IMG/VR virus record: IMGVR_UViG_3300008807_000293
Span: 1 to 5,659 of that record
Reading direction: 5' to 3' (one strand)
DNA: 5,659 nucleotides
Source of the DNA: a virus
The notes below the pieces were generated by a model. The model had not been told where the DNA came from. It saw nothing but the letters and a program-made list of their open reading frames with translations, and ran no database searches. How positions within the stretch are numbered: position 1 is the stretch's first letter; every line of letters starts with the position of its first letter. The translations under genes and the position numbers were made by a program. This document shows positions 1-5,659 of this stretch, in pieces.

Positions 1-99
1 GGAAGCTATACGTCAACGTGAATTTTTTGCACGTCGTTATGTAGATGTTTTAGGAAATGTATGGGGTTCAACTGTTAATATTGATGCAGATCAAAGGCC
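1..99. repeat. Left copy of an exact 99-nt terminal direct repeat (identical to 5561-5659). This is the circularisation overlap of a 5560-nt circular genome.
   Basis: Read directly: ggaagctatacgtcaacgtgaatttttt...gcagatcaaaggcc occurs at 1-99 and again at 5561-5659. The capsid reading frame is continuous across the implied junction (offset 5560; frame 0 at the 3' end maps to frame 2 at the 5' end). Confidence 0.95.
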
Positions 100-682
100 A
101 GAATTGTTAATGCATAATAAGAATTGGTTGTCTGGTTATGATGTTGATGGTACAACTGATACAACATTGGGAACTTATAGTGGCAAAGGTGCAAGTGTTG
201 GTTCAATTAATGTTCCTTGGAAATATATACCCGAACATGGTGCAGTTTGGGTTATGGCTTTGTTGCGTTTTCCACCATTGCATTGTAAAGAACGTCATTA
301 TTTGGCAGGAAAATCTGAACCTACTTATGGGCAGATTTCTGGTGACCCTGAATATTATAAAAATCAAGCACCCATTGCTTTGAATATGTCGGAGTATTTT
401 GTTGGTTCTTCGGTCACTGATGCTGGCCAGATTCCTTATGGTCAATGGTATAGAGAGCAACCAAATTTTGTTCATGATCGTTATAAATTAATTGATGGTC
501 ATCCTTTTATAGAAAATAATTTTGATACTGTATATTCAACTAAGTATATTGGTACGACTGAATATGATAATGTTTTTTCTTCGTCACAATTGAAACATTG
601 GCAATCTCAAGGTTATTTGGACGTTCAAGTTAAGCGTTTAGTTCCTGATCCTCGTACTTCGATATTTGCAGGTACGGTATAA
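2..682 (+). CDS. F: Major capsid protein F, C-terminal part. It continues the ORF that starts at 4935. The joined ORF, 4935..5560 plus 1..682, is 1308 nt (435 aa).
   Basis: The frame is open from the window start to TAA at 680-682. The track start at 104 is an internal TTG. Translation ...DADQRPELLMHNKNWLSGYDVDGTTDTTLGTYSGK...IPEHGAVWVMALLRFPP...GQWYREQP... aligns by eye with phiX174 F (...DADNRPLLVMRSNLWASGYDVDGTDQTSLGQFSGR...VPEHGTMFTLALVRFPP...GQWYRYAP...). Confidence 0.93.
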   Translation, partial: EAIRQREFFARRYVDVLGNVWGSTVNIDADQRPELLMHNKNWLSGYDVDGTTDTTLGTYSGKGASVGSINVPWKYIPEHGAVWVMALLRFPPLHCKERHYLAGKSEPTYGQISGDPEYYKNQAPIALNMSEYFVGSSVTDAGQIPYGQWYREQPNFVHDRYKLIDGHPFIENNFDTVYSTKYIGTTEYDNVFSSSQLKHWQSQGYLDVQVKRLVPDPRTSIFAGTV

Positions 683-683
683 T

Positions 684-866
684 ATGATAATGAAACAGAT
701 TGAGGAAAAAGTTTATAATTATATTTATGATACTTCTAAACAAACTTATAGTGATCTCAAAGGAAAAGAATTGGAAAAATATCATTTTGTTCTTTGGGAG
801 TTGATTAAATGTGGCTATATTCAAATTGATCATGAAATTCGTATAAAAAATGAGGTGATAAAATGA
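684..866 (+). CDS. Hypothetical 60-aa protein inserted between capsid F and the G-slot gene. Possible small helical or winged-helix-like protein.
   Basis: ATG at 684 lies 1 nt after the F stop (TAAtATG). The stop TGA at 864-866 overlaps the next gene's ATG (863) as ATGA. The next gene's SD (GAGGTG, 852-857) lies inside its 3' end. The track start at 666 is a TTG inside F and is less likely. Translation: MIMKQIEEKVYNYIYDTSKQTYSDLKGKELEKYHFVLWELIKCGYIQIDHEIRIKNEVIK. I recognise no homolog. Confidence 0.55.
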   Translation: MIMKQIEEKVYNYIYDTSKQTYSDLKGKELEKYHFVLWELIKCGYIQIDHEIRIKNEVIK

Positions 867-2364: not shown

Positions 2365-3813
2365 ATGTTATCAGAATTAACCGACCCCGATTTTTCAATT
2401 ACTAATCTATGTCAAATAGACAAAGTATTTCGTTTAAAACACCGTATTAAATCACGTATTGATAATTTGACTGTTCAATCTAAGTTAAGTGATACTTATA
2501 ATGGTTTTCTTTATAATTTAGAGTATAAGCATTTATTTAATAAAGATATTCAAGAACTCTATAATATATATAATCGACTAGATAATAATAACGTTATTTG
2601 CAACAAGACGTATGAAGAATGTTATTCTTTGTATGTTAGGTATCCAAAGACGTTAAAAGAGCATGCTCAATTGTTGTTTGGTGGTCATTATTATAAGGCT
2701 AAGAATGTAAAAGAGCCATGTCCAGAATTAAAACAGTTTTTAATTAATTTAAAAAATAATACGTTAAAGTCTAGGAAATTTGAATCTTTAGCACTATTAC
2801 GAGTTGAGTGTCAATATAGATATAAACAAGGATGGTATTTTGTATTTAATACTCTTACGGTTGATAATAATTATTTATCTGATGTCTTTTCTAATGGGTC
2901 TGCTGTTTGGACTAATTATATAAGGTCAATTGATAGAATGTTTGGAATAAAGAGTTTTGGTGATTGGCGCACTGCTTTAAGGCAGAGAAAATTAGGTAAT
3001 GAATTTCATCAATACTTTGCTGTTGTTGAGCGTGGTGGTGAGACTGGTCGTTTGCATATTCATGTTTTACACATGTTTAAAGATTTGCCAGATCAGTTTG
3101 TTGATCCAAATTATGGGGCTAGGATACCTGTTTCACGTGAAATCGATTATATGAAATCATTTTGGAAATATGGCTATTCTTCTCCCATTGCTGTTAGGTT
3201 TAATTCAAGTGACGCTTATGCTAAGAAGTTTTGGCGATGGCCTGTTGAAAAGATGCCTAAAGTTGGTTATGTTTCTTTAGAAACTTCTGATATTGAACGA
3301 ATGATTAATTACGTTGGTAAATATATTTCTAAGACTTTAGATCAACCAATTAATTCTAAGGAGGTAATCAGATGGAGAATAAGGAAGTCAAGGACAATGT
3401 CAAAACAAGTTCTACAGGTTCTAGTGGACAAGTTGAAAGTAAAGGAGTTGGCACTAGTCATGGTAGTCAATCCAATAGTTTTGAAAATGAGAGGGAAAAT
3501 TCTACCCATAAGAATGTTAAGATTGATGGTTCTAAGAAAATTGATGATATATTGGACGATAACGAATTGCCAGAAATTGTCTCAGTTTCAGGCAAACTTA
3601 ATGCCTCGAGAGAATATTGTAAAGCAGTTCGTAAATATGATAAGTCTAAACATGGACTCCAAGATGCTGAGCATTGGAGATTTGAAAGTTCGCATCTTAA
3701 CAAATTTGGCAGGTTCTAGTTTATTGTTGACAATTAAAGAAGTCAGTGATATGATGTTAGGTGAATTGAAGAATAATTATGTAGTTAAACCTTATAGTGG
3801 AGCCATCATATGA
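2365..3813 (+). CDS. A: Replication initiation protein A (HUH rolling-circle endonuclease), 482 aa.
   Basis: This is the first ATG after an in-frame TAG (2344-2346). HUH motif: GRLHIHVLHMF (His-Ile-His codons at 3055-3063) vs phiX174 GRLHFHAVHFM. Also VDPNYGARIP vs VDPNFGRRVR, WKYGYSSPIAVRF vs WPYGYSMPIAVRY, and the paired catalytic Tyr motif YVGKYISK (Tyr codons at 3310 and 3322) vs YVAKYVNK. GWYFVFNTLTV matches GWFIVFDTLTL. Confidence 0.93.
   Translation: MLSELTDPDFSITNLCQIDKVFRLKHRIKSRIDNLTVQSKLSDTYNGFLYNLEYKHLFNKDIQELYNIYNRLDNNNVICNKTYEECYSLYVRYPKTLKEHAQLLFGGHYYKAKNVKEPCPELKQFLINLKNNTLKSRKFESLALLRVECQYRYKQGWYFVFNTLTVDNNYLSDVFSNGSAVWTNYIRSIDRMFGIKSFGDWRTALRQRKLGNEFHQYFAVVERGGETGRLHIHVLHMFKDLPDQFVDPNYGARIPVSREIDYMKSFWKYGYSSPIAVRFNSSDAYAKKFWRWPVEKMPKVGYVSLETSDIERMINYVGKYISKTLDQPINSKEVIRWRIRKSRTMSKQVLQVLVDKLKVKELALVMVVNPIVLKMRGKILPIRMLRLMVLRKLMIYWTITNCQKLSQFQANLMPRENIVKQFVNMISLNMDSKMLSIGDLKVRILTNLAGSSLLLTIKEVSDMMLGELKNNYVVKPYSGAII
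2575..2604 (+). other. Putative (+)-strand rolling-circle origin inside gene A, with the predicted nick after G2581.
   Basis: CGACTAGATAATAATAACGTTATTTGCAAC matches the phiX174 origin 30-mer as I recall it (CAACTTGATATTAATAACACTATAGACCAC) at 20/30 positions overall. It matches 15/18 in the nick-proximal part. It falls at the homologous place in the protein alignment (RLDNNNVICN vs QLDINNTIDH). Confidence 0.6.
3372..3719 (+). CDS. B: Internal scaffolding protein B, 115 aa, wholly nested in gene A in a different frame.
   Basis: A strong SD AAGGAGGT (3358-3365) lies 6 nt before the ATG. The nested-in-A arrangement is the same as in phiX174. The aromatic C-terminus AEHWRFESSHLNKFGRF resembles phiX174 B AEFYRFHDAEVNTFGYF. 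The internal REYCKAV resembles KSYCSRR. The N-terminal half is polar and acidic. Confidence 0.85.
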   Translation: MENKEVKDNVKTSSTGSSGQVESKGVGTSHGSQSNSFENERENSTHKNVKIDGSKKIDDILDDNELPEIVSVSGKLNASREYCKAVRKYDKSKHGLQDAEHWRFESSHLNKFGRF

Positions 3814-4166
3814 ATGTTATTTTACAATCTTTGCAAAGTTTTATTGATATGGAAGGTATTTGGTCAGAACCCATTAAGTATCGTATTTATTATATTTTGG
3901 GTTTATTAGATGAAAAATTGACTGTAACATCTGATACATTGTTGATTTCTAAAGATGGTTCTTTAGATATTAAATCAAGAGAAGAATTTATTTCTGAATC
4001 TGCTAGTGTAAGATTGACTAGAAATTCATTGAGTAATTTGATTTCTAAAGTTAAAGATGCAAATAATTTTTTGGCAATGCCTGATGCTGATACTGATTTA
4101 ATTTCATCTTCTTTGATCAGTGCTCGTCTTTATTTGTTTTCTATTTTGTTAAGTGAGGTTAAATAA
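3810..4166 (+). CDS. Hypothetical 118-aa protein in the position of phiX174 gene C (DNA maturation / packaging switch). I recognise no sequence similarity.
   Basis: GGAG (3799-3802) lies 7 nt upstream of the ATG. The ATG overlaps the A stop as ATGA (3810-3813). The stop TAA at 4164-4166 is 1 nt before the D start. Tight coupling on both sides argues that it is translated. Confidence 0.6.
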   Translation: MNVILQSLQSFIDMEGIWSEPIKYRIYYILGLLDEKLTVTSDTLLISKDGSLDIKSREEFISESASVRLTRNSLSNLISKVKDANNFLAMPDADTDLISSSLISARLYLFSILLSEVK

Positions 4167-4167
4167 T

Positions 4168-4671
4168 ATGCAATATAAAGTTGCTAGAGGTGCAATGGCG
4201 TTAATTGCTCATCAATGTAAGAATGGTGATTTGGATTCAATGGGTGTTACTTTAGAAGATTTTAAAAAATTGACTTCTCATACACCTTGGTTAGCCCCCG
4301 ATAGAAATCGAATGAATCAAGTATTTAATAGCATTATGTCTGGTACTATGGATGTTGTTGGTGTTCCCCGTTTTCAAATGCCTGCTGAGTATATTGCTGC
4401 TGGTATAGCTATGTTTGTTGCCCCCATAAATATTCATGTTGCATGTCGTTTCATGGAAAGAATTCCGACGGCCGAGAGTTTAGGTCGTGGATTAGATCAA
4501 GCAGATATGTGTACAGCTCAACAGTTATTTAGTTTAGTTGTTCAATTAGTTGCTGATCCTGAAACGTCTCATGCAAAGGTTTTATTTGAACGAAATACGC
4601 AAATGAGAATTGAAAATTCTGCTTTTCATGCTGACGAAAATTCTTCGGTTGAATCTGGAAAACGTAAGTAA
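4168..4671 (+). CDS. D: External scaffolding protein D, 167 aa.
   Basis: TLEDFKKLTSHTPWLAPDRNRMNQVFNSIMSGTMDVVGVPRFQMPAEYIAAGIAMFVAPINIHVACRFMER aligns by eye with phiX174 D LTEDDFDFLTSNKVWIATDRSRARRCVEACVYGTLDFVGYPRFPAPVEFIAAVIAYYVHPVNIQTACLIMEG. I prefer ATG 4168 to the track's GTG 4153, because that GTG is part of the SD (GTGAGGT, 4153-4159) serving ATG 4168. Confidence 0.9.
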   Translation: MQYKVARGAMALIAHQCKNGDLDSMGVTLEDFKKLTSHTPWLAPDRNRMNQVFNSIMSGTMDVVGVPRFQMPAEYIAAGIAMFVAPINIHVACRFMERIPTAESLGRGLDQADMCTAQQLFSLVVQLVADPETSHAKVLFERNTQMRIENSAFHADENSSVESGKRK

Positions 4672-4688: not shown

Positions 4689-4751
4689 ATGGCAAGACCA
4701 AAAAAACGTAAAGGAATCAGAATCCACTATAAAGGTGGAAACCGATTTTAA
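4689..4751 (+). CDS. J: Small basic DNA-binding / packaging protein J, only 20 aa (MARPKKRKGIRIHYKGGNRF).
   Basis: It is below the ORF-track size cutoff and was found by reading. A strong SD AAGGAGGTG (4676-4684) lies 4 nt before the ATG. The N-terminus is basic. The C-terminus RIHYKGGNRF resembles phiX174 J RLWYVGGQQF. Its position between D and F is as in phiX174. Confidence 0.8.
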   Translation: MARPKKRKGIRIHYKGGNRF

Positions 4752-4759
4752 GGTGTCCT

Positions 4760-4927
4760 ATGGGTAAAGATTTTAAATTTTCTAAAAGATCGTCTCTGAT
4801 TGGGTTCATTGTTGGAACAATTTTATCTGTTTTAAGTCTTTTTGTTCCACAGGTGAAAGATTTTAAAGATGCTTTATCTCAAACAAATGAAAATCCAGTT
4901 TCAGTTGTAGTTGATTCTATTAAGTGA
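4760..4927 (+). CDS. Hypothetical 55-aa single-pass membrane protein. Candidate lysis (amurin-type) or K-like membrane protein.
   Basis: It is below the ORF-track cutoff. SD AAGGTG (4750-4755) lies 4 nt before the ATG. Translation: MGKDFKFSKRSSLIGFIVGTILSVLSLFVPQVKDFKDALSQTNENPVSVVVDSIK. It has a basic N-terminus, about 19 hydrophobic residues, then an acidic/polar tail. The F SD (GAGGTG, 4926-4931) straddles its stop codon (TGA, 4925-4927). It fills what is a non-coding J-F spacer in phiX174. Confidence 0.6.
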   Translation: MGKDFKFSKRSSLIGFIVGTILSVLSLFVPQVKDFKDALSQTNENPVSVVVDSIK

Positions 4928-4934
4928 GGTGATT

Positions 4935-5659
4935 ATGGGGCAAACTAGTGCAAATGAAAATTCTCATATTAACGAGCGAATCCAGTATGATTTGAGCCAT
5001 TGGTCAATGAATTGTGGCATGATTGGTGGTTTGCAGACATTATCTTTGATTCCTGTTATTGCAGGTGATTCAATTAAAATTGATATGGATGCAGTATTTC
5101 GTCTTTCACCATTACGTAGGAATTTATATTTAGATTGTCAAATTGATTTGTTTGCCTTTTATGTTCCACACCGTCATATTTATGGCTCATCTTGGATTGA
5201 TTTTCTTAAAGCGGGTCCTAATGAAACAACTACTTTTGGTACTCGTACTTTAACTGGTGCAAATTATTGCTGTGGTACTCATTTGCCAGAAGGTACTGTT
5301 CCTCGTTGGATACCTGAAGGATATTTACAGATTTGGAATCGTTATTTTAAGCACCCCACAGATGCTGATGAAGCTATGTCTTATTTCGATAGTTTAGCTG
5401 CTGGTAGTGATGTGTTAAATTATGGAATTCCATGTGGTTGGCCTGGTCGTATTTGGAATACACAAGTTGCGGCTTTAGCTGTTAACTCTGACAAACGTTT
5501 TAGTTTGGTTGATACTGATAAGATTGATTTGTTAGATATGGCTAATAAACAAGGTCACTTGGAAGCTATACGTCAACGTGAATTTTTTGCACGTCGTTAT
5601 GTAGATGTTTTAGGAAATGTATGGGGTTCAACTGTTAATATTGATGCAGATCAAAGGCC
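4935..5659 (+). CDS. F: Major capsid protein F, N-terminal part. It runs off the window end and continues at 2..682 through the circular junction.
   Basis: SD GAGGTG (4926-4931) lies 3 nt before the ATG. I read no stop through 5659. Translation MGQTSANENSHINERIQYDLSHWSMNCGMIGGLQTLSLIPVIAGDSIKIDMDAVFRLSPLRRNLYLDCQIDLFAFYVPHRHIYGSSWIDFLKAG... aligns with phiX174 F ...MPHDLSHLGFLAGQIGRLITISTTPVIAGDSFEMDAVGALRLSPLRRGLAIDSTVDIFTFYVPHRHVYGEQWIKFMKDG. Confidence 0.93.
   Translation, partial: MGQTSANENSHINERIQYDLSHWSMNCGMIGGLQTLSLIPVIAGDSIKIDMDAVFRLSPLRRNLYLDCQIDLFAFYVPHRHIYGSSWIDFLKAGPNETTTFGTRTLTGANYCCGTHLPEGTVPRWIPEGYLQIWNRYFKHPTDADEAMSYFDSLAAGSDVLNYGIPCGWPGRIWNTQVAALAVNSDKRFSLVDTDKIDLLDMANKQGHLEAIRQREFFARRYVDVLGNVWGSTVNIDADQR
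5561..5659. repeat. Right copy of the 99-nt terminal direct repeat (identical to 1-99).
   Basis: Exact identity to 1-99, read directly. It lies inside the capsid ORF, so it is an assembly or linearisation overlap and not a biological repeat. Confidence 0.95.

What the first reader, a model, noticed from the sequence alone, without database searches (positions are those of the whole stretch)
4760..4927. Free-standing 55-aa single-TM gene between J and F, while the E-equivalent frame in D is closed: candidate relocated or novel lysis gene
In phiX174 the lysis gene E is overprinted on D in the +1 frame, starting at the codons for VYGTLDF. Here the homologous +1 frame of D is open only from 4316 to a TAG at 4406-4408. 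From its only ATG (4352) it encodes 18 residues (MLLVFPVFKCLLSILLLV). It is hydrophobic like E but truncated. No other overlapping ORF of 60 aa or more exists in D. Instead, the J-F interval, which is non-coding in phiX174, holds an SD-preceded ORF. This ORF has a basic N-terminus, one TM helix (SSLIGFIVGTILSVLSLFV, followed by Pro30) and an acidic tail. A small membrane protein is the expected form of a single-gene lysis protein in a phage this size. A K-like accessory membrane protein is the alternative. The TM segment is flanked by identical KDFK motifs, each encoded by the same 12-mer aaagattttaaa (4766-4777 and 4856-4867).
Basis: partly seen in the sequence, partly recalled or inferred. 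Interest (0 to 1): 0.75.

Follow-up and report, generated by a model that had tools for sequence, protein, structure and literature searches.

The report
Conserved small membrane gene, candidate lysis
A phiX174-like phage genome with no equivalent of the lysis gene E carries a real, conserved 55-residue membrane-protein gene between genes J and F; it is the best candidate for the phage's lysis protein, but that function is untested.

Summary
The window is a complete circular 5,560-nt microvirus (34% GC) of the "pequenovirus" sister clade of phiX174-like phages, with genes A, B, D, J, F, G and H.

- **E frame:** the E-equivalent +1 frame of D is closed (TAG at 4406; 18-aa ATG ORF).
- **The ORF is a real gene:** 4760-4927 is packed between J and F, each stop codon lying inside the next Shine-Dalgarno site. 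Its codon usage matches the phage's genes in that frame only.
- **Conservation:** homologs sit in the same J-to-F slot in nine other divergent genome lineages. These ten are the whole family in searches of 5.8 and 1.8 billion proteins.
- **Shared architecture:** a basic N-terminus, one TM helix with a conserved small-residue stripe (G15, G19, S23, S/A26) ending in F-x-P, and an acidic tail. This predicts N-in/C-out topology.
- **Not E or K:** profile comparison gives 2% and 0.1% probability, and the predicted topology is opposite to E. "Relocated E" is rejected.
- **Lysis role:** a novel single-gene lysis protein is the best reading (about 0.5), argued by elimination and analogy. The family is missing from several close relatives, so a non-lysis accessory membrane role remains a serious rival.
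- **KDFK 12-mer repeat:** real, but not conserved in any homolog.

The parts
4760..4927 (+). 55-aa small membrane protein gene (ORF55), member of a 10-lineage family found between J and F in pequenovirus-like microviruses
   Evidence: ORF listed. Codon usage supports this frame only. Homologs. Leave-one-out HMM gives E 5e-14 to 4e-4 for 8 of 9 members.
4750..4755 (+). Shine-Dalgarno AAGGTG for ORF55, overlapping J's stop codon (4749-4751), 4 nt before the ATG
   Evidence: J (AAGGAGGTG, 4-nt spacer) and F (GAGGTG, 3-nt spacer) use the same AGGTG-type site.
4760..4789 (+). Basic N-terminal segment (residues 1-10, net +3), predicted to be cytoplasmic
   Evidence: The K/R column at residue 10 is conserved in 9 of 10 members.
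4790..4849 (+). TM helix (residues 11-30) with conserved small-residue stripe G15, G19, S23, S26, followed by F28-x-P30
   Evidence: KD19 hydropathy 2.2. Column conservation. AF2 helix 9-28 with a break at residue 29, just before P30 (pLDDT 64).
4850..4924 (+). Polar, acidic C-terminal tail (residues 31-55), predicted to be periplasmic. It contains a second helix and then a weakly conserved hydrophobic/acidic patch (VVVD).
   Evidence: Tail net charge is -1 to -8 in 7 of the 8 aligned members that have a tail; L021 is +2. AF2 helix 30-43. Alignments.
4766..4777 (+). First copy of the 12-mer AAAGATTTTAAA (KDFK, residues 3-6)
   Evidence: Not conserved in homologs.
4856..4867 (+). Second copy of the 12-mer AAAGATTTTAAA (KDFK, residues 33-36)
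4689..4751 (+). Gene J (20-aa DNA-binding protein MARPKKRKGIRIHYKGGNRF), immediately upstream
   Evidence: Weak Pfam Microvir_J and phrog_2354 matches (E 0.009 each). The ...HY.GG.R. C-terminus is shared by the J proteins of all relatives.
4168..4671 (+). Gene D (external scaffolding protein)
   Evidence: Pfam gpD 1e-19, phrog_1386 9e-47.
4316..4408 (+). E-equivalent +1 frame of D: a 30-codon open stretch closed by TAG at 4406-4408; the only ATG is at 4352 (18 aa)
   Evidence: This frame is open for 40 or more codons in at most 32% of 19 related genomes.
4935..5659 (+). Gene F (major capsid protein), 5' part. It continues across the circular junction to window position 682.
   Evidence: Pfam Phage_F 1e-58.
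1..682 (+). Gene F, 3' part. Positions 1-99 duplicate 5561-5659, the terminal redundancy of a circular assembly.

Best explanation
ORF55 (4760-4927) is a genuine late gene of a pequenovirus-like microvirus.

What it encodes: a bitopic inner-membrane protein. The basic N-terminus is predicted to stay in the cytoplasm. One TM helix carries a conserved small-xxx-small stripe (G15, G19, S23, S/A26) and ends in F-x-P. A short acidic tail is predicted to lie in the periplasm.

Expression: it is probably translated from the D-J-F late message, because each stop codon in the J-ORF55-F run is embedded in the next gene's SD.

Most likely function (inferred, not shown): it is the phage's single-gene lysis effector and functionally replaces the missing E.

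Favoured mechanism: the small-residue face of the TM helix packs against a membrane-embedded enzyme of the lipid-II supply line, an MraY-, MurJ- or similar-type target. This would block peptidoglycan synthesis so that growing cells lyse. It is an independent invention, not a displaced E.

Shown: the gene is real, coding, conserved, has the features of a membrane protein and is unrelated to E and K; no other conserved lysis candidate was found.

Inferred: the topology (positive-inside rule), the lysis function and the target class.
For: - Coding: only this frame has phage-like codon usage, and the gene is tightly coupled to J and F.
- Family: ten lineages carry a homolog directly after J (window, L024, L022, L025, L026, L001 = NC_026665 VV06_gp5, L017, L021, L002, L036). 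Their D proteins are only 52-66% identical to the window's, where that was measured (not for L036).
- HMM support: an iterative HMM search of 2,275 ORFs separates members (E <= 1.5e-12) from the best decoy (E 0.067).
- Age: on an F+D tree, members span deep and shallow branches, so the gene is ancestral to the clade and has been kept for a long time.
- Conserved features: K/R10, G15, G19, S23, S/A26, F28 and P30. N-terminal charge is +1 to +8, and tail charge is -1 to -8 in 7 of 8 members with a tail.
- Elimination: no Pfam or PHROG lysis, holin or muralytic hit in any ORF. The only overprinted frame open in all relatives is B in A, and D's +1 frame is not conserved open. ORF55 is the only free-standing ORF with an ATG start and a TM segment in the window.
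- Slot behaviour: related genomes that lack the family often carry unrelated small TM ORFs in the same D-to-F interval (L016, L018, L005, L041/L042, L033/L035, L038). This is the turnover pattern described for Sgl genes (PMC7693330).
- Precedent: known Sgls are small single-TMD proteins of either topology that target MraY or MurJ (PMC10229422, PMC12506998).
Against: - There is no functional data of any kind.
- The family is absent from six related genome lineages where J abuts F (L009-L012, L013-L015, L019/L020, L007, L008, L006). L009 and L013 form the sister group of the family-bearing L024. An essential function would need an unseen replacement there.
- The gene has a good SD and an ATG and sits between two highly expressed structural genes. 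That looks unlike the weakly expressed E and could mean high copy number.
- The tail carries a weakly conserved periplasmic patch, which hints at a periplasmic partner rather than a purely intramembrane target.
- In the ssRNA-phage screen, only 33 of 293 candidate ORFs were active in E. coli (PMC7693330).
- The host is unknown: two genome-contig scans found nothing.
Confidence: 0.5

Rival explanations
1. ORF55 is a dispensable accessory inner-membrane protein and not the lysis effector. It could be a superinfection-exclusion or entry-blocking factor, or a K-like modulator of burst size. In that case its periplasmic tail would act on a periplasmic or envelope partner, and lysis would be done by something not yet recognised.
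For: - The distribution is patchy, with clean losses where J abuts F (L009/L013, L019, L007, L008, L006).
- One member is truncated, has no tail and starts with GTG (L002).
- The tail has a weakly conserved hydrophobic/acidic patch predicted to face the periplasm.
- Other members of the wider clade carry lipobox ORFs, which resemble phage receptor-blocking lipoproteins (an analogy from general knowledge): L004 1205-1447 and L047 2770-3000.
- The gene sits in a high-expression context.
Against: - No other conserved lysis candidate exists in the window or across the clade.
- The gene has been retained across deep branches of the clade.
- There is no similarity to K (hhalign probability 0.1%).
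- No homolog carries a functional annotation: the one GenBank homolog is a hypothetical protein, and the family searches gave no significant hit. PADLOC was not searched.
Confidence: 0.3
2. ORF55 causes lysis or host killing by self-assembly rather than by inhibiting an enzyme. The glycine-zipper-like TM face would drive oligomers that depolarise or damage the inner membrane, in the manner of a pinholin or an MS2-L-like protein, and so trigger host autolysis.
For: - A small-xxx-small stripe runs the full length of the helix.
- The domain order is basic N-terminus, hydrophobic segment, then an LS dipeptide in 6 of 10 members. This resembles the L-like Sgl architecture, which is a resemblance from memory plus PMC7693330.
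- The likely high expression would suit a mass-action trigger.
- There is a marginal BlyA-holin match (E 0.095).
Against: - The genome has no endolysin to partner a holin.
- All holin- and L-type matches are far below threshold.
- A small-residue stripe equally suits binding to a target helix.
Confidence: 0.12
3. The ORF is a chance open frame in an AT-rich intergenic spacer, and the real lysis gene is a degraded or mis-sequenced E in D.
For: - The genome is T-rich, so alternative frames readily give hydrophobic peptides.
- The D +1 frame peptide is hydrophobic, like E.
Against: - Ten homologs occupy the same slot, with conserved residues.
- Codon usage is frame-specific.
- The D +1 frame is closed at different places in most relatives, so a single sequencing error at 4406 cannot explain its closure.
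Confidence: 0.02

Closest known systems
phiX174/G4/alpha3 lysis protein E (Pfam Microvir_lysis), the MraY inhibitor
   Same: It is a small single-TM protein of a D/J/F-type microvirus that has no endolysin. The TM helix ends in an (L/M)F(I/V)P motif in both proteins. It is the presumed lysis effector.
   Different: - No detectable homology (no Pfam hit; hhalign probability 2%).
- Free-standing between J and F rather than overprinted in D.
- The charge pattern is reversed: basic N-terminus and acidic C-terminus here, against a basic C-terminal domain in E, so the opposite topology is predicted.
- There is no mid-helix Pro21 equivalent.
- 55 aa, against 75-91 aa for E.
ssRNA-phage single-gene lysis proteins SglM (LysM) and SglPP7, the MurJ inhibitors
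   Same: They are 37-55-aa class bitopic membrane proteins that act through TM-helix packing against a lipid-II pathway membrane protein. Unrelated Sgl families of either topology converge on the same targets (PMC10229422, PMC12506998). ORF55 meets the candidate criteria of at least 25 codons, an SD and a TMD (PMC7693330).
   Different: ORF55 comes from an ssDNA phage, not an ssRNA phage. No sequence similarity is claimed or was found. The target is unknown and activity is untested.
MS2 L-like Sgls
   Same: The domain order is the same: a basic N-terminal region, a hydrophobic segment and an LS dipeptide (TILSV in the window; LS in 6 of 10 members).
   Different: The resemblance is architectural only and was partly recalled from memory. 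It was not tested against L sequences here. The mechanism of L itself is unresolved.
YP_009126957.1 (VV06_gp5), hypothetical protein of Eel River basin pequenovirus NC_026665
   Same: It is a true homolog: 38% identity over 39 residues (E 2e-9), in the same J-to-F position and with the same architecture. It is the only member found in the GenBank phage collection searched.
   Different: It is annotated only as hypothetical. It is 59 aa long, with a more basic N-terminus (+8) and a more acidic tail (-8).
phiX174 protein K
   Different: hhalign probability is 0.1%. K overlaps A and C, whereas ORF55 is free-standing between J and F. K has no comparable TM segment with a basic N-terminus and an acidic tail.

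Membership tests
Microvirus lysis protein E (Microvir_lysis) | Sequence match to the E family profile | tested here: not met
   No Pfam hit to the E family for the window ORF or for any of the 9 members at E <= 1. hhalign of the family against phiX174/alpha3/ID2 E gives probability 2.1%.
Microvirus lysis protein E (Microvir_lysis) | Overprinted in the +1 frame of gene D | tested here: not met
   ORF55 is free-standing at 4760-4927. The D +1 frame is closed at 4406 and is not conserved open in relatives.
Microvirus lysis protein E (Microvir_lysis) | N-terminal TM helix with an essential mid-helix proline, followed by a basic cytoplasmic C-terminal domain | tested here: not met
   The Pro is at the end of the helix (P30, in 8 of 10 members). 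The N-terminus is basic and the C-terminus is acidic.
Microvirus lysis protein E (Microvir_lysis) | Inhibits MraY and depends on SlyD | not testable with these tools
   This needs expression and genetics.
Single-gene lysis proteins (Sgl, a functional class) | Small ORF (at least 25 codons) with a Shine-Dalgarno site and a predicted TMD (nomination criteria of PMC7693330) | tested here: met
   55 codons; AAGGTG 4 nt upstream; 20-residue hydrophobic helix with KD19 2.2.
Single-gene lysis proteins (Sgl, a functional class) | The phage lacks a holin/endolysin system | tested here: met
   No muralytic or holin domain in any ORF by Pfam or PHROGs.
Single-gene lysis proteins (Sgl, a functional class) | Expression alone causes host lysis | not testable with these tools
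   This is the defining property, and it is unknown here.
phiX174 protein K | Sequence similarity and a position overlapping A and C | tested here: not met
   hhalign probability 0.1%. ORF55 lies between J and F.
Holin / pinholin | Small TM protein encoded next to an endolysin gene | tested here: not met
   The genome has no endolysin. The best match is BlyA holin, E 0.095 at 12.7 bits against a 52.85-bit cut-off.
i-spanin (Rz-like) | N-in TM anchor, a long periplasmic coiled-coil domain and a partner outer-membrane lipoprotein | tested here: not met
   One of the 10 members (L021) hits phrog_739 at E 0.003, over the anchor region only. The tail is only 25 residues, and the window has no lipobox ORF.
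Pequenovirus J-F small membrane protein family (defined here) | Match to the family HMM; position directly after J and before F; K/R10, G15, G19, S23, S/A26, F28-x-P30 | tested here: met
   With the window left out of the model, it still scores E 3e-10. Full-model E is 1.5e-22. All the conserved columns are present in the window.

The most novel reading that the evidence does not exclude
The ORF55 family is a second, independently evolved single-gene lysis ("protein antibiotic") family of ssDNA microviruses. It is free-standing rather than overprinted, has the opposite membrane topology to E, and uses a conserved small-residue TM face, possibly together with a periplasmic tail motif. It would inhibit a cell-wall precursor step in a low-GC Gram-negative host, possibly at a target or interface not hit by E.
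Probability: 0.4. Interest if true: 0.75.

Novelty: new member of a known kind. Interest (0 to 1): 0.5.

Why it matters
E is the only lysis protein characterised in the family Microviridae. How the many non-phiX microviruses lyse their hosts is largely unknown, apart from peptidase genes in some families (PMC9239249).

A conserved, free-standing, 50-80-residue membrane protein in the sister clade of phiX174 is a cheap, directly testable candidate. The route is already established: gene synthesis, inducible expression, then multicopy-suppressor or resistance mapping (PMC10229422).

If it is lytic, it would add a new "protein antibiotic" and perhaps a new weak spot in envelope biogenesis. It would also show that lysis genes turn over in ssDNA phages as they do in ssRNA phages.

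If it is not lytic, it defines a new accessory membrane-protein family, and the lysis question for this clade stays open.

Tried and rejected
- **Direct homolog searches with the 55-aa protein.** The 5.8-billion word-index search, the 1.84-billion exhaustive phmmer search and tblastn against GenBank phages found only the query itself. Homologs were reached only through synteny, by fetching genomes that encode related D or F proteins.
- **Locus scans seeded with D.** IMG/VR and JGI metagenome scans gave few loci. The D profile search followed by contig look-ups was far more productive.
- **Family alignment as a pattern seed.** It was too variable to use.
- **Host inference.** Two genome-contig scans, with D and then F, were empty. 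A search for the SRA run accessions in the literature found nothing.
- **"Relocated E" and "K-like" by homology.** Both were rejected.
- **Complementary distribution.** I tested whether genomes without the family have an E-like ORF in D. The result is not convincing. L009 and L013 have 45- and 35-aa hydrophobic +1 ORFs, but these start with TTG and have no SD. L002 and L024, which carry the family, also have long open +1 stretches. The hydrophobicity follows from T-rich third positions in D.
- **Purifying selection by dN/dS.** The only near-identical pair (L022/L023) has zero differences. All other pairs are saturated, at 14-40% amino-acid identity.
- **Structure.** AF2 accepted only a 3-sequence alignment and gave pLDDT 64, which is useful only for helix boundaries. 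I ran no fold search because a two-helix model cannot give meaningful matches.
- **Signals and RNAs.** Rfam and the promoter/terminator scans found nothing on the + strand in the J-F region.
- **Original pequenovirus paper.** Bryson et al. 2015 is not held in the library.
- **Wider membership.** L041/L042 (PKFS... N-terminus), L033/L035 and L038 look similar by eye but are not HMM-significant. I treat them as analogues only.

Full report
**1. What the window is**

Positions 1-99 repeat exactly at 5561-5659. The window is therefore a complete circular genome of 5,560 nt with assembly redundancy. It is 34% GC and T-rich. All genes are on the + strand:

| Gene | Coordinates | Evidence |
|---|---|---|
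| F | 4935, wrapping to 682 (435 aa) | Phage_F 1e-58 |
| G-like | 863-1483 | position only |
| H-like | 1642-2322 | weak pilot-protein match |
| A | 2365-3813 | phrog_713 5e-76 |
| B-like | 3372-3719, overprinted in A | weak Phage_B match |
| 118-aa ORF | 3810-4166 | none |
| D | 4168-4671 | gpD 1e-19, phrog_1386 9e-47 |
| J | 4689-4751 (20 aa) | weak Microvir_J match |

At the DNA level the best GenBank match is Eel River basin pequenovirus, with about 69% identity over 10% of the query. phiX-like coliphages match only in a 200-nt stretch of F. The phage therefore belongs to the pequenovirus group, which together with the Bullavirinae forms "Family 1/Suborder I" of microviruses. That group is defined by the external scaffolding protein D and a spike protein (PMC9239249).

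**2.

- The ORF, its peptide, Pro30, the two KDFK motifs and the two copies of AAAGATTTTAAA are exactly as described.
- The +1 frame of D is open only from 4316 to 4405 and is closed by TAG at 4406. Its sole ATG (4352) gives an 18-residue hydrophobic peptide.
- No ORF of 60 aa or more overlaps D on either strand.
- In phiX174, J ends at 964 and F starts at 1001, with nothing between them. E (568-843) lies in D.

**3. The ORF is a real gene**

(a) Packing. J's TAA lies inside ORF55's AAGGTG site, with a 4-nt spacer to the ATG. ORF55's TGA lies inside F's GAGGTG site, with a 3-nt spacer. J uses the same AGGTG-type site.

(b) Codon usage. Third positions are 53% T and 2% C, as in the main genes (52% and 5%). 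The codon-usage log-likelihood is +13 bits in this frame, against -33 and -73 in the other + frames and at most 0.2 on the minus strand.

(c) Homologs.
- The 59-aa "hypothetical protein" VV06_gp5 of NC_026665 lies between J and F and aligns at 38% identity (E 2e-9).
- Genomes fetched through D and F relatives gave further members in the same slot: L024, L022 (= L023), L025, L026 (= L032), L017, L021, L002 and L036.
- A leave-one-out HMM test against 985 ORFs from all genomes recovers 8 of 9 members at E between 5e-14 and 4e-4. Decoys scored 0.2 at best. L026 is marginal.
- An iterative HMM search over 2,275 ORFs converges on 10 lineages (E <= 1.5e-12), with the next ORF at E 0.067.
- Direct searches of 5.8 billion and 1.84 billion proteins find nothing outside this set.

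(d) Phylogeny. On an F+D neighbour-joining tree, members sit on both deep branches (L001/L026, L021/L025) and shallow ones (window/L017, L024, L002) of the pequeno-like clade. The gene is therefore old and has been maintained. It has also been lost (L009+L013, L019, L007) or replaced by unrelated mini-TM ORFs (L016, L018).

**4. Anatomy of the protein**

The family shares four elements:
- A basic N-terminus, with net charge +1 to +8 and K/R at column 10 in 9 of 10 members.
- A hydrophobic helix of 19-23 residues in most members.
- A conserved stripe of small residues on that helix: G15 (8/10 small), G19 (9/9), S23 (9/10) and S/A26 (9/10).
- A helix end of F28 (7/10) and P30 (8/10), followed by a polar tail. 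The tail is net acidic (-1 to -8) in 7 of the 8 aligned members that have one, and L021 is +2. It contains a weakly conserved hydrophobic/acidic patch (VVVD, VIES, SVDI, VEVVES).

AF2 on the three sequences it would accept gives helix 9-28, a break at residue 29 just before P30, and helix 30-43 (pLDDT 64).

By the positive-inside rule, the N-terminus is cytoplasmic and the tail periplasmic. The hydrophobic segment is too long for a cleaved signal peptide and has no AxA-type cleavage site. These topology statements are inferences.

The KDFK duplication occurs in no homolog. The genome has three local exact 12-mer repeats, whereas only 11% of Markov-simulated genomes had any. The repeat is thus a real but lineage-specific micro-duplication with no evidence of function.

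**5. What it is not**

- It does not match Pfam, PHROGs, NCBIfam or PDB sequences at a meaningful level.
- Profile-profile comparison with an E alignment (phiX174, alpha3, ID2) gives probability 2%. The only overlap is the generic hydrophobic stretch ending in (L/M)F(V/I)P.
- E has a mid-helix Pro21 and a basic C-terminal domain. ORF55 has the reverse charge pattern. "Relocated E" is rejected.
- Comparison with K gives probability 0.1%.
- One member (L021) hits an Rz-like i-spanin PHROG at E 0.003, over the membrane-anchor region only. The 25-residue tail and the absence of any lipoprotein partner rule out a spanin.

**6. Function**

No ORF in the genome has a muralytic, peptidase or holin domain.

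I aligned A, D, F, G and H across 15-19 genomes and asked where an alternative frame stays open for 40 or more codons:
- The positive control, B in A, is open in about 100% of genomes.
- D's +1 frame reaches at most 32%.
- No other region exceeds about 60%, which is close to the background for +1 frames in T-rich genomes.

So there is no conserved overprinted lysis gene. ORF55 is the only free-standing ATG-initiated ORF with a TM segment in the window. It satisfies the criteria used to nominate Sgl genes experimentally (PMC7693330). Known Sgls are short single-TMD proteins of either topology that jam MraY or MurJ through helix packing (PMC10229422, PMC12506998). A conserved small-residue face is what such packing would need.

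In related genomes that lack the family, the D-to-F interval often holds other, unrelated small TM ORFs: L016 (43 aa), L018 (25 aa), L005 (54 aa, between D and J), L041/L042, L033/L035 and L038. This resembles the rapid turnover described for Sgl genes.

These points make "novel single-gene lysis protein" the best explanation, and I put it at about 0.5.

**7. Why not higher**

- The argument rests on elimination and analogy.
- Six related lineages have J abutting F and no recognisable substitute. These include L009/L013, the sister group of the family-bearing L024.
- Their D +1 ORFs start with TTG and have no SD. Family-bearing genomes have similar open stretches, so there is no clean complementary pattern.
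- The gene's strong translation signals, in the most highly expressed part of the genome, differ from E's weak expression.
- The tail motif points to a periplasmic partner.
- In the ssRNA-phage screen, only 33 of 293 candidate ORFs were active in E. coli (PMC7693330).
- The host is unknown.

A dispensable accessory role, such as superinfection exclusion or K-like burst modulation, is therefore a serious rival (0.3). Lysis by self-assembly is a smaller one (0.12). A chance ORF is excluded (0.02).

**8. Novelty and verdict**

The family is unannotated. Its only GenBank member found is a "hypothetical protein". I found no paper that discusses it.

It is best filed as a new member of a known kind: small phage membrane proteins that are candidate single-gene lysis effectors. 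Its homology is independent of E, and its genomic form (free-standing) and predicted topology both differ from E.

Interest is moderate, at 0.5. The candidate is concrete and cheap to test, and it bears on an open question, namely how non-phiX microviruses lyse their hosts. The function itself remains unproven.

Noticed in passing
window 1-99 and 5561-5659: There is an exact 99-nt terminal redundancy. The window is a complete circular 5,560-nt genome, and gene F runs across the junction (4935 to 682).
   Followed up: yes
window 666-866 (probable ATG at 684 or 690); also L001 4018-4209, L021 3028-3195, L025 4402-4572, L026 1677-1904, L007 3894-4058: A small soluble ORF of about 55-75 aa occupies the F-G interval in several pequeno-like genomes. 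It is absent where F abuts G (L009, L013, L002, L017, L024). It has no family hit. Homology between the copies was not tested.
   Followed up: partly
window 3810-4166: A single 118-aa ORF lies between A and D, where relatives carry two ORFs of 52-77 aa (for example L017 4080-4256 and 4253-4411). It has no blastp similarity to any relative at E <= 1e-3 and no Pfam or PHROG hit. It may be a C/K-region fusion or a replacement.
   Followed up: partly
window 561/681, 3942/4038, 4766/4856: The genome has three independent exact 12- to 13-mer direct repeats, each pair less than 150 nt apart. Only 11% of Markov-simulated genomes had any. This suggests local micro-duplication in this genome.
   Followed up: partly
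L009 3214-3465 (and its variants L010-L012): This genome lacks the J-F gene. Here J's reading frame stays open for 84 codons upstream, into the 3' end of D. An in-frame ATG at 3271 would give a 68-aa protein with a hydrophobic N-terminus fused to J. No SD was seen, so it may be a chance feature.
   Followed up: partly
L009 868-999, L013 1476-1616, L024 4293-4409; also L005 874-1056 and L039 2688-2855: Small Cys-rich ORFs with a zinc-ribbon-like CxxC...CxxC pattern recur in several related genomes. In the first three they lie between H and A.
   Followed up: no
L004 1205-1447 and L047 2770-3000: These are small ORFs with lipoprotein signal peptides (lipoboxes LSAC and LVTGC) in more distant D-bearing microviruses. 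They may be receptor-blocking or lysis-related lipoproteins.
   Followed up: no
L036 (first 6,928 nt of the 42,762-nt IMG/VR contig 3300020050_002980): After a full gene set (A, B, D, J, family ORF, F, G, H), a second and different A-like ORF begins at 5434-6879. No exact periodicity was found. The long contig may be a chain of different microvirus genomes or a chimeric assembly.
   Followed up: partly
L002 1389-1523 and 748-966: The L002 family member is truncated: it starts with GTG, is 44 aa long and has no tail. The same genome has the longest open E-equivalent frame in D among family-bearing genomes (73 codons, with a 52-aa ATG ORF). This might be a lysis-gene transition caught in progress, or coincidence.
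   Followed up: partly
L041 2653-2850, L042 2717-2941, L033 548-715, L035 2457-2600, L038 2584-2715: More small single-TM ORFs lie in the D-to-F interval of more distant relatives. Some have N-termini (PKFS.K/R, KSRR) and F-P helix ends that recall the family, but none is HMM-significant. L033 and L035 lie before J rather than after it, and L038 overlaps J's start.
   Followed up: partly
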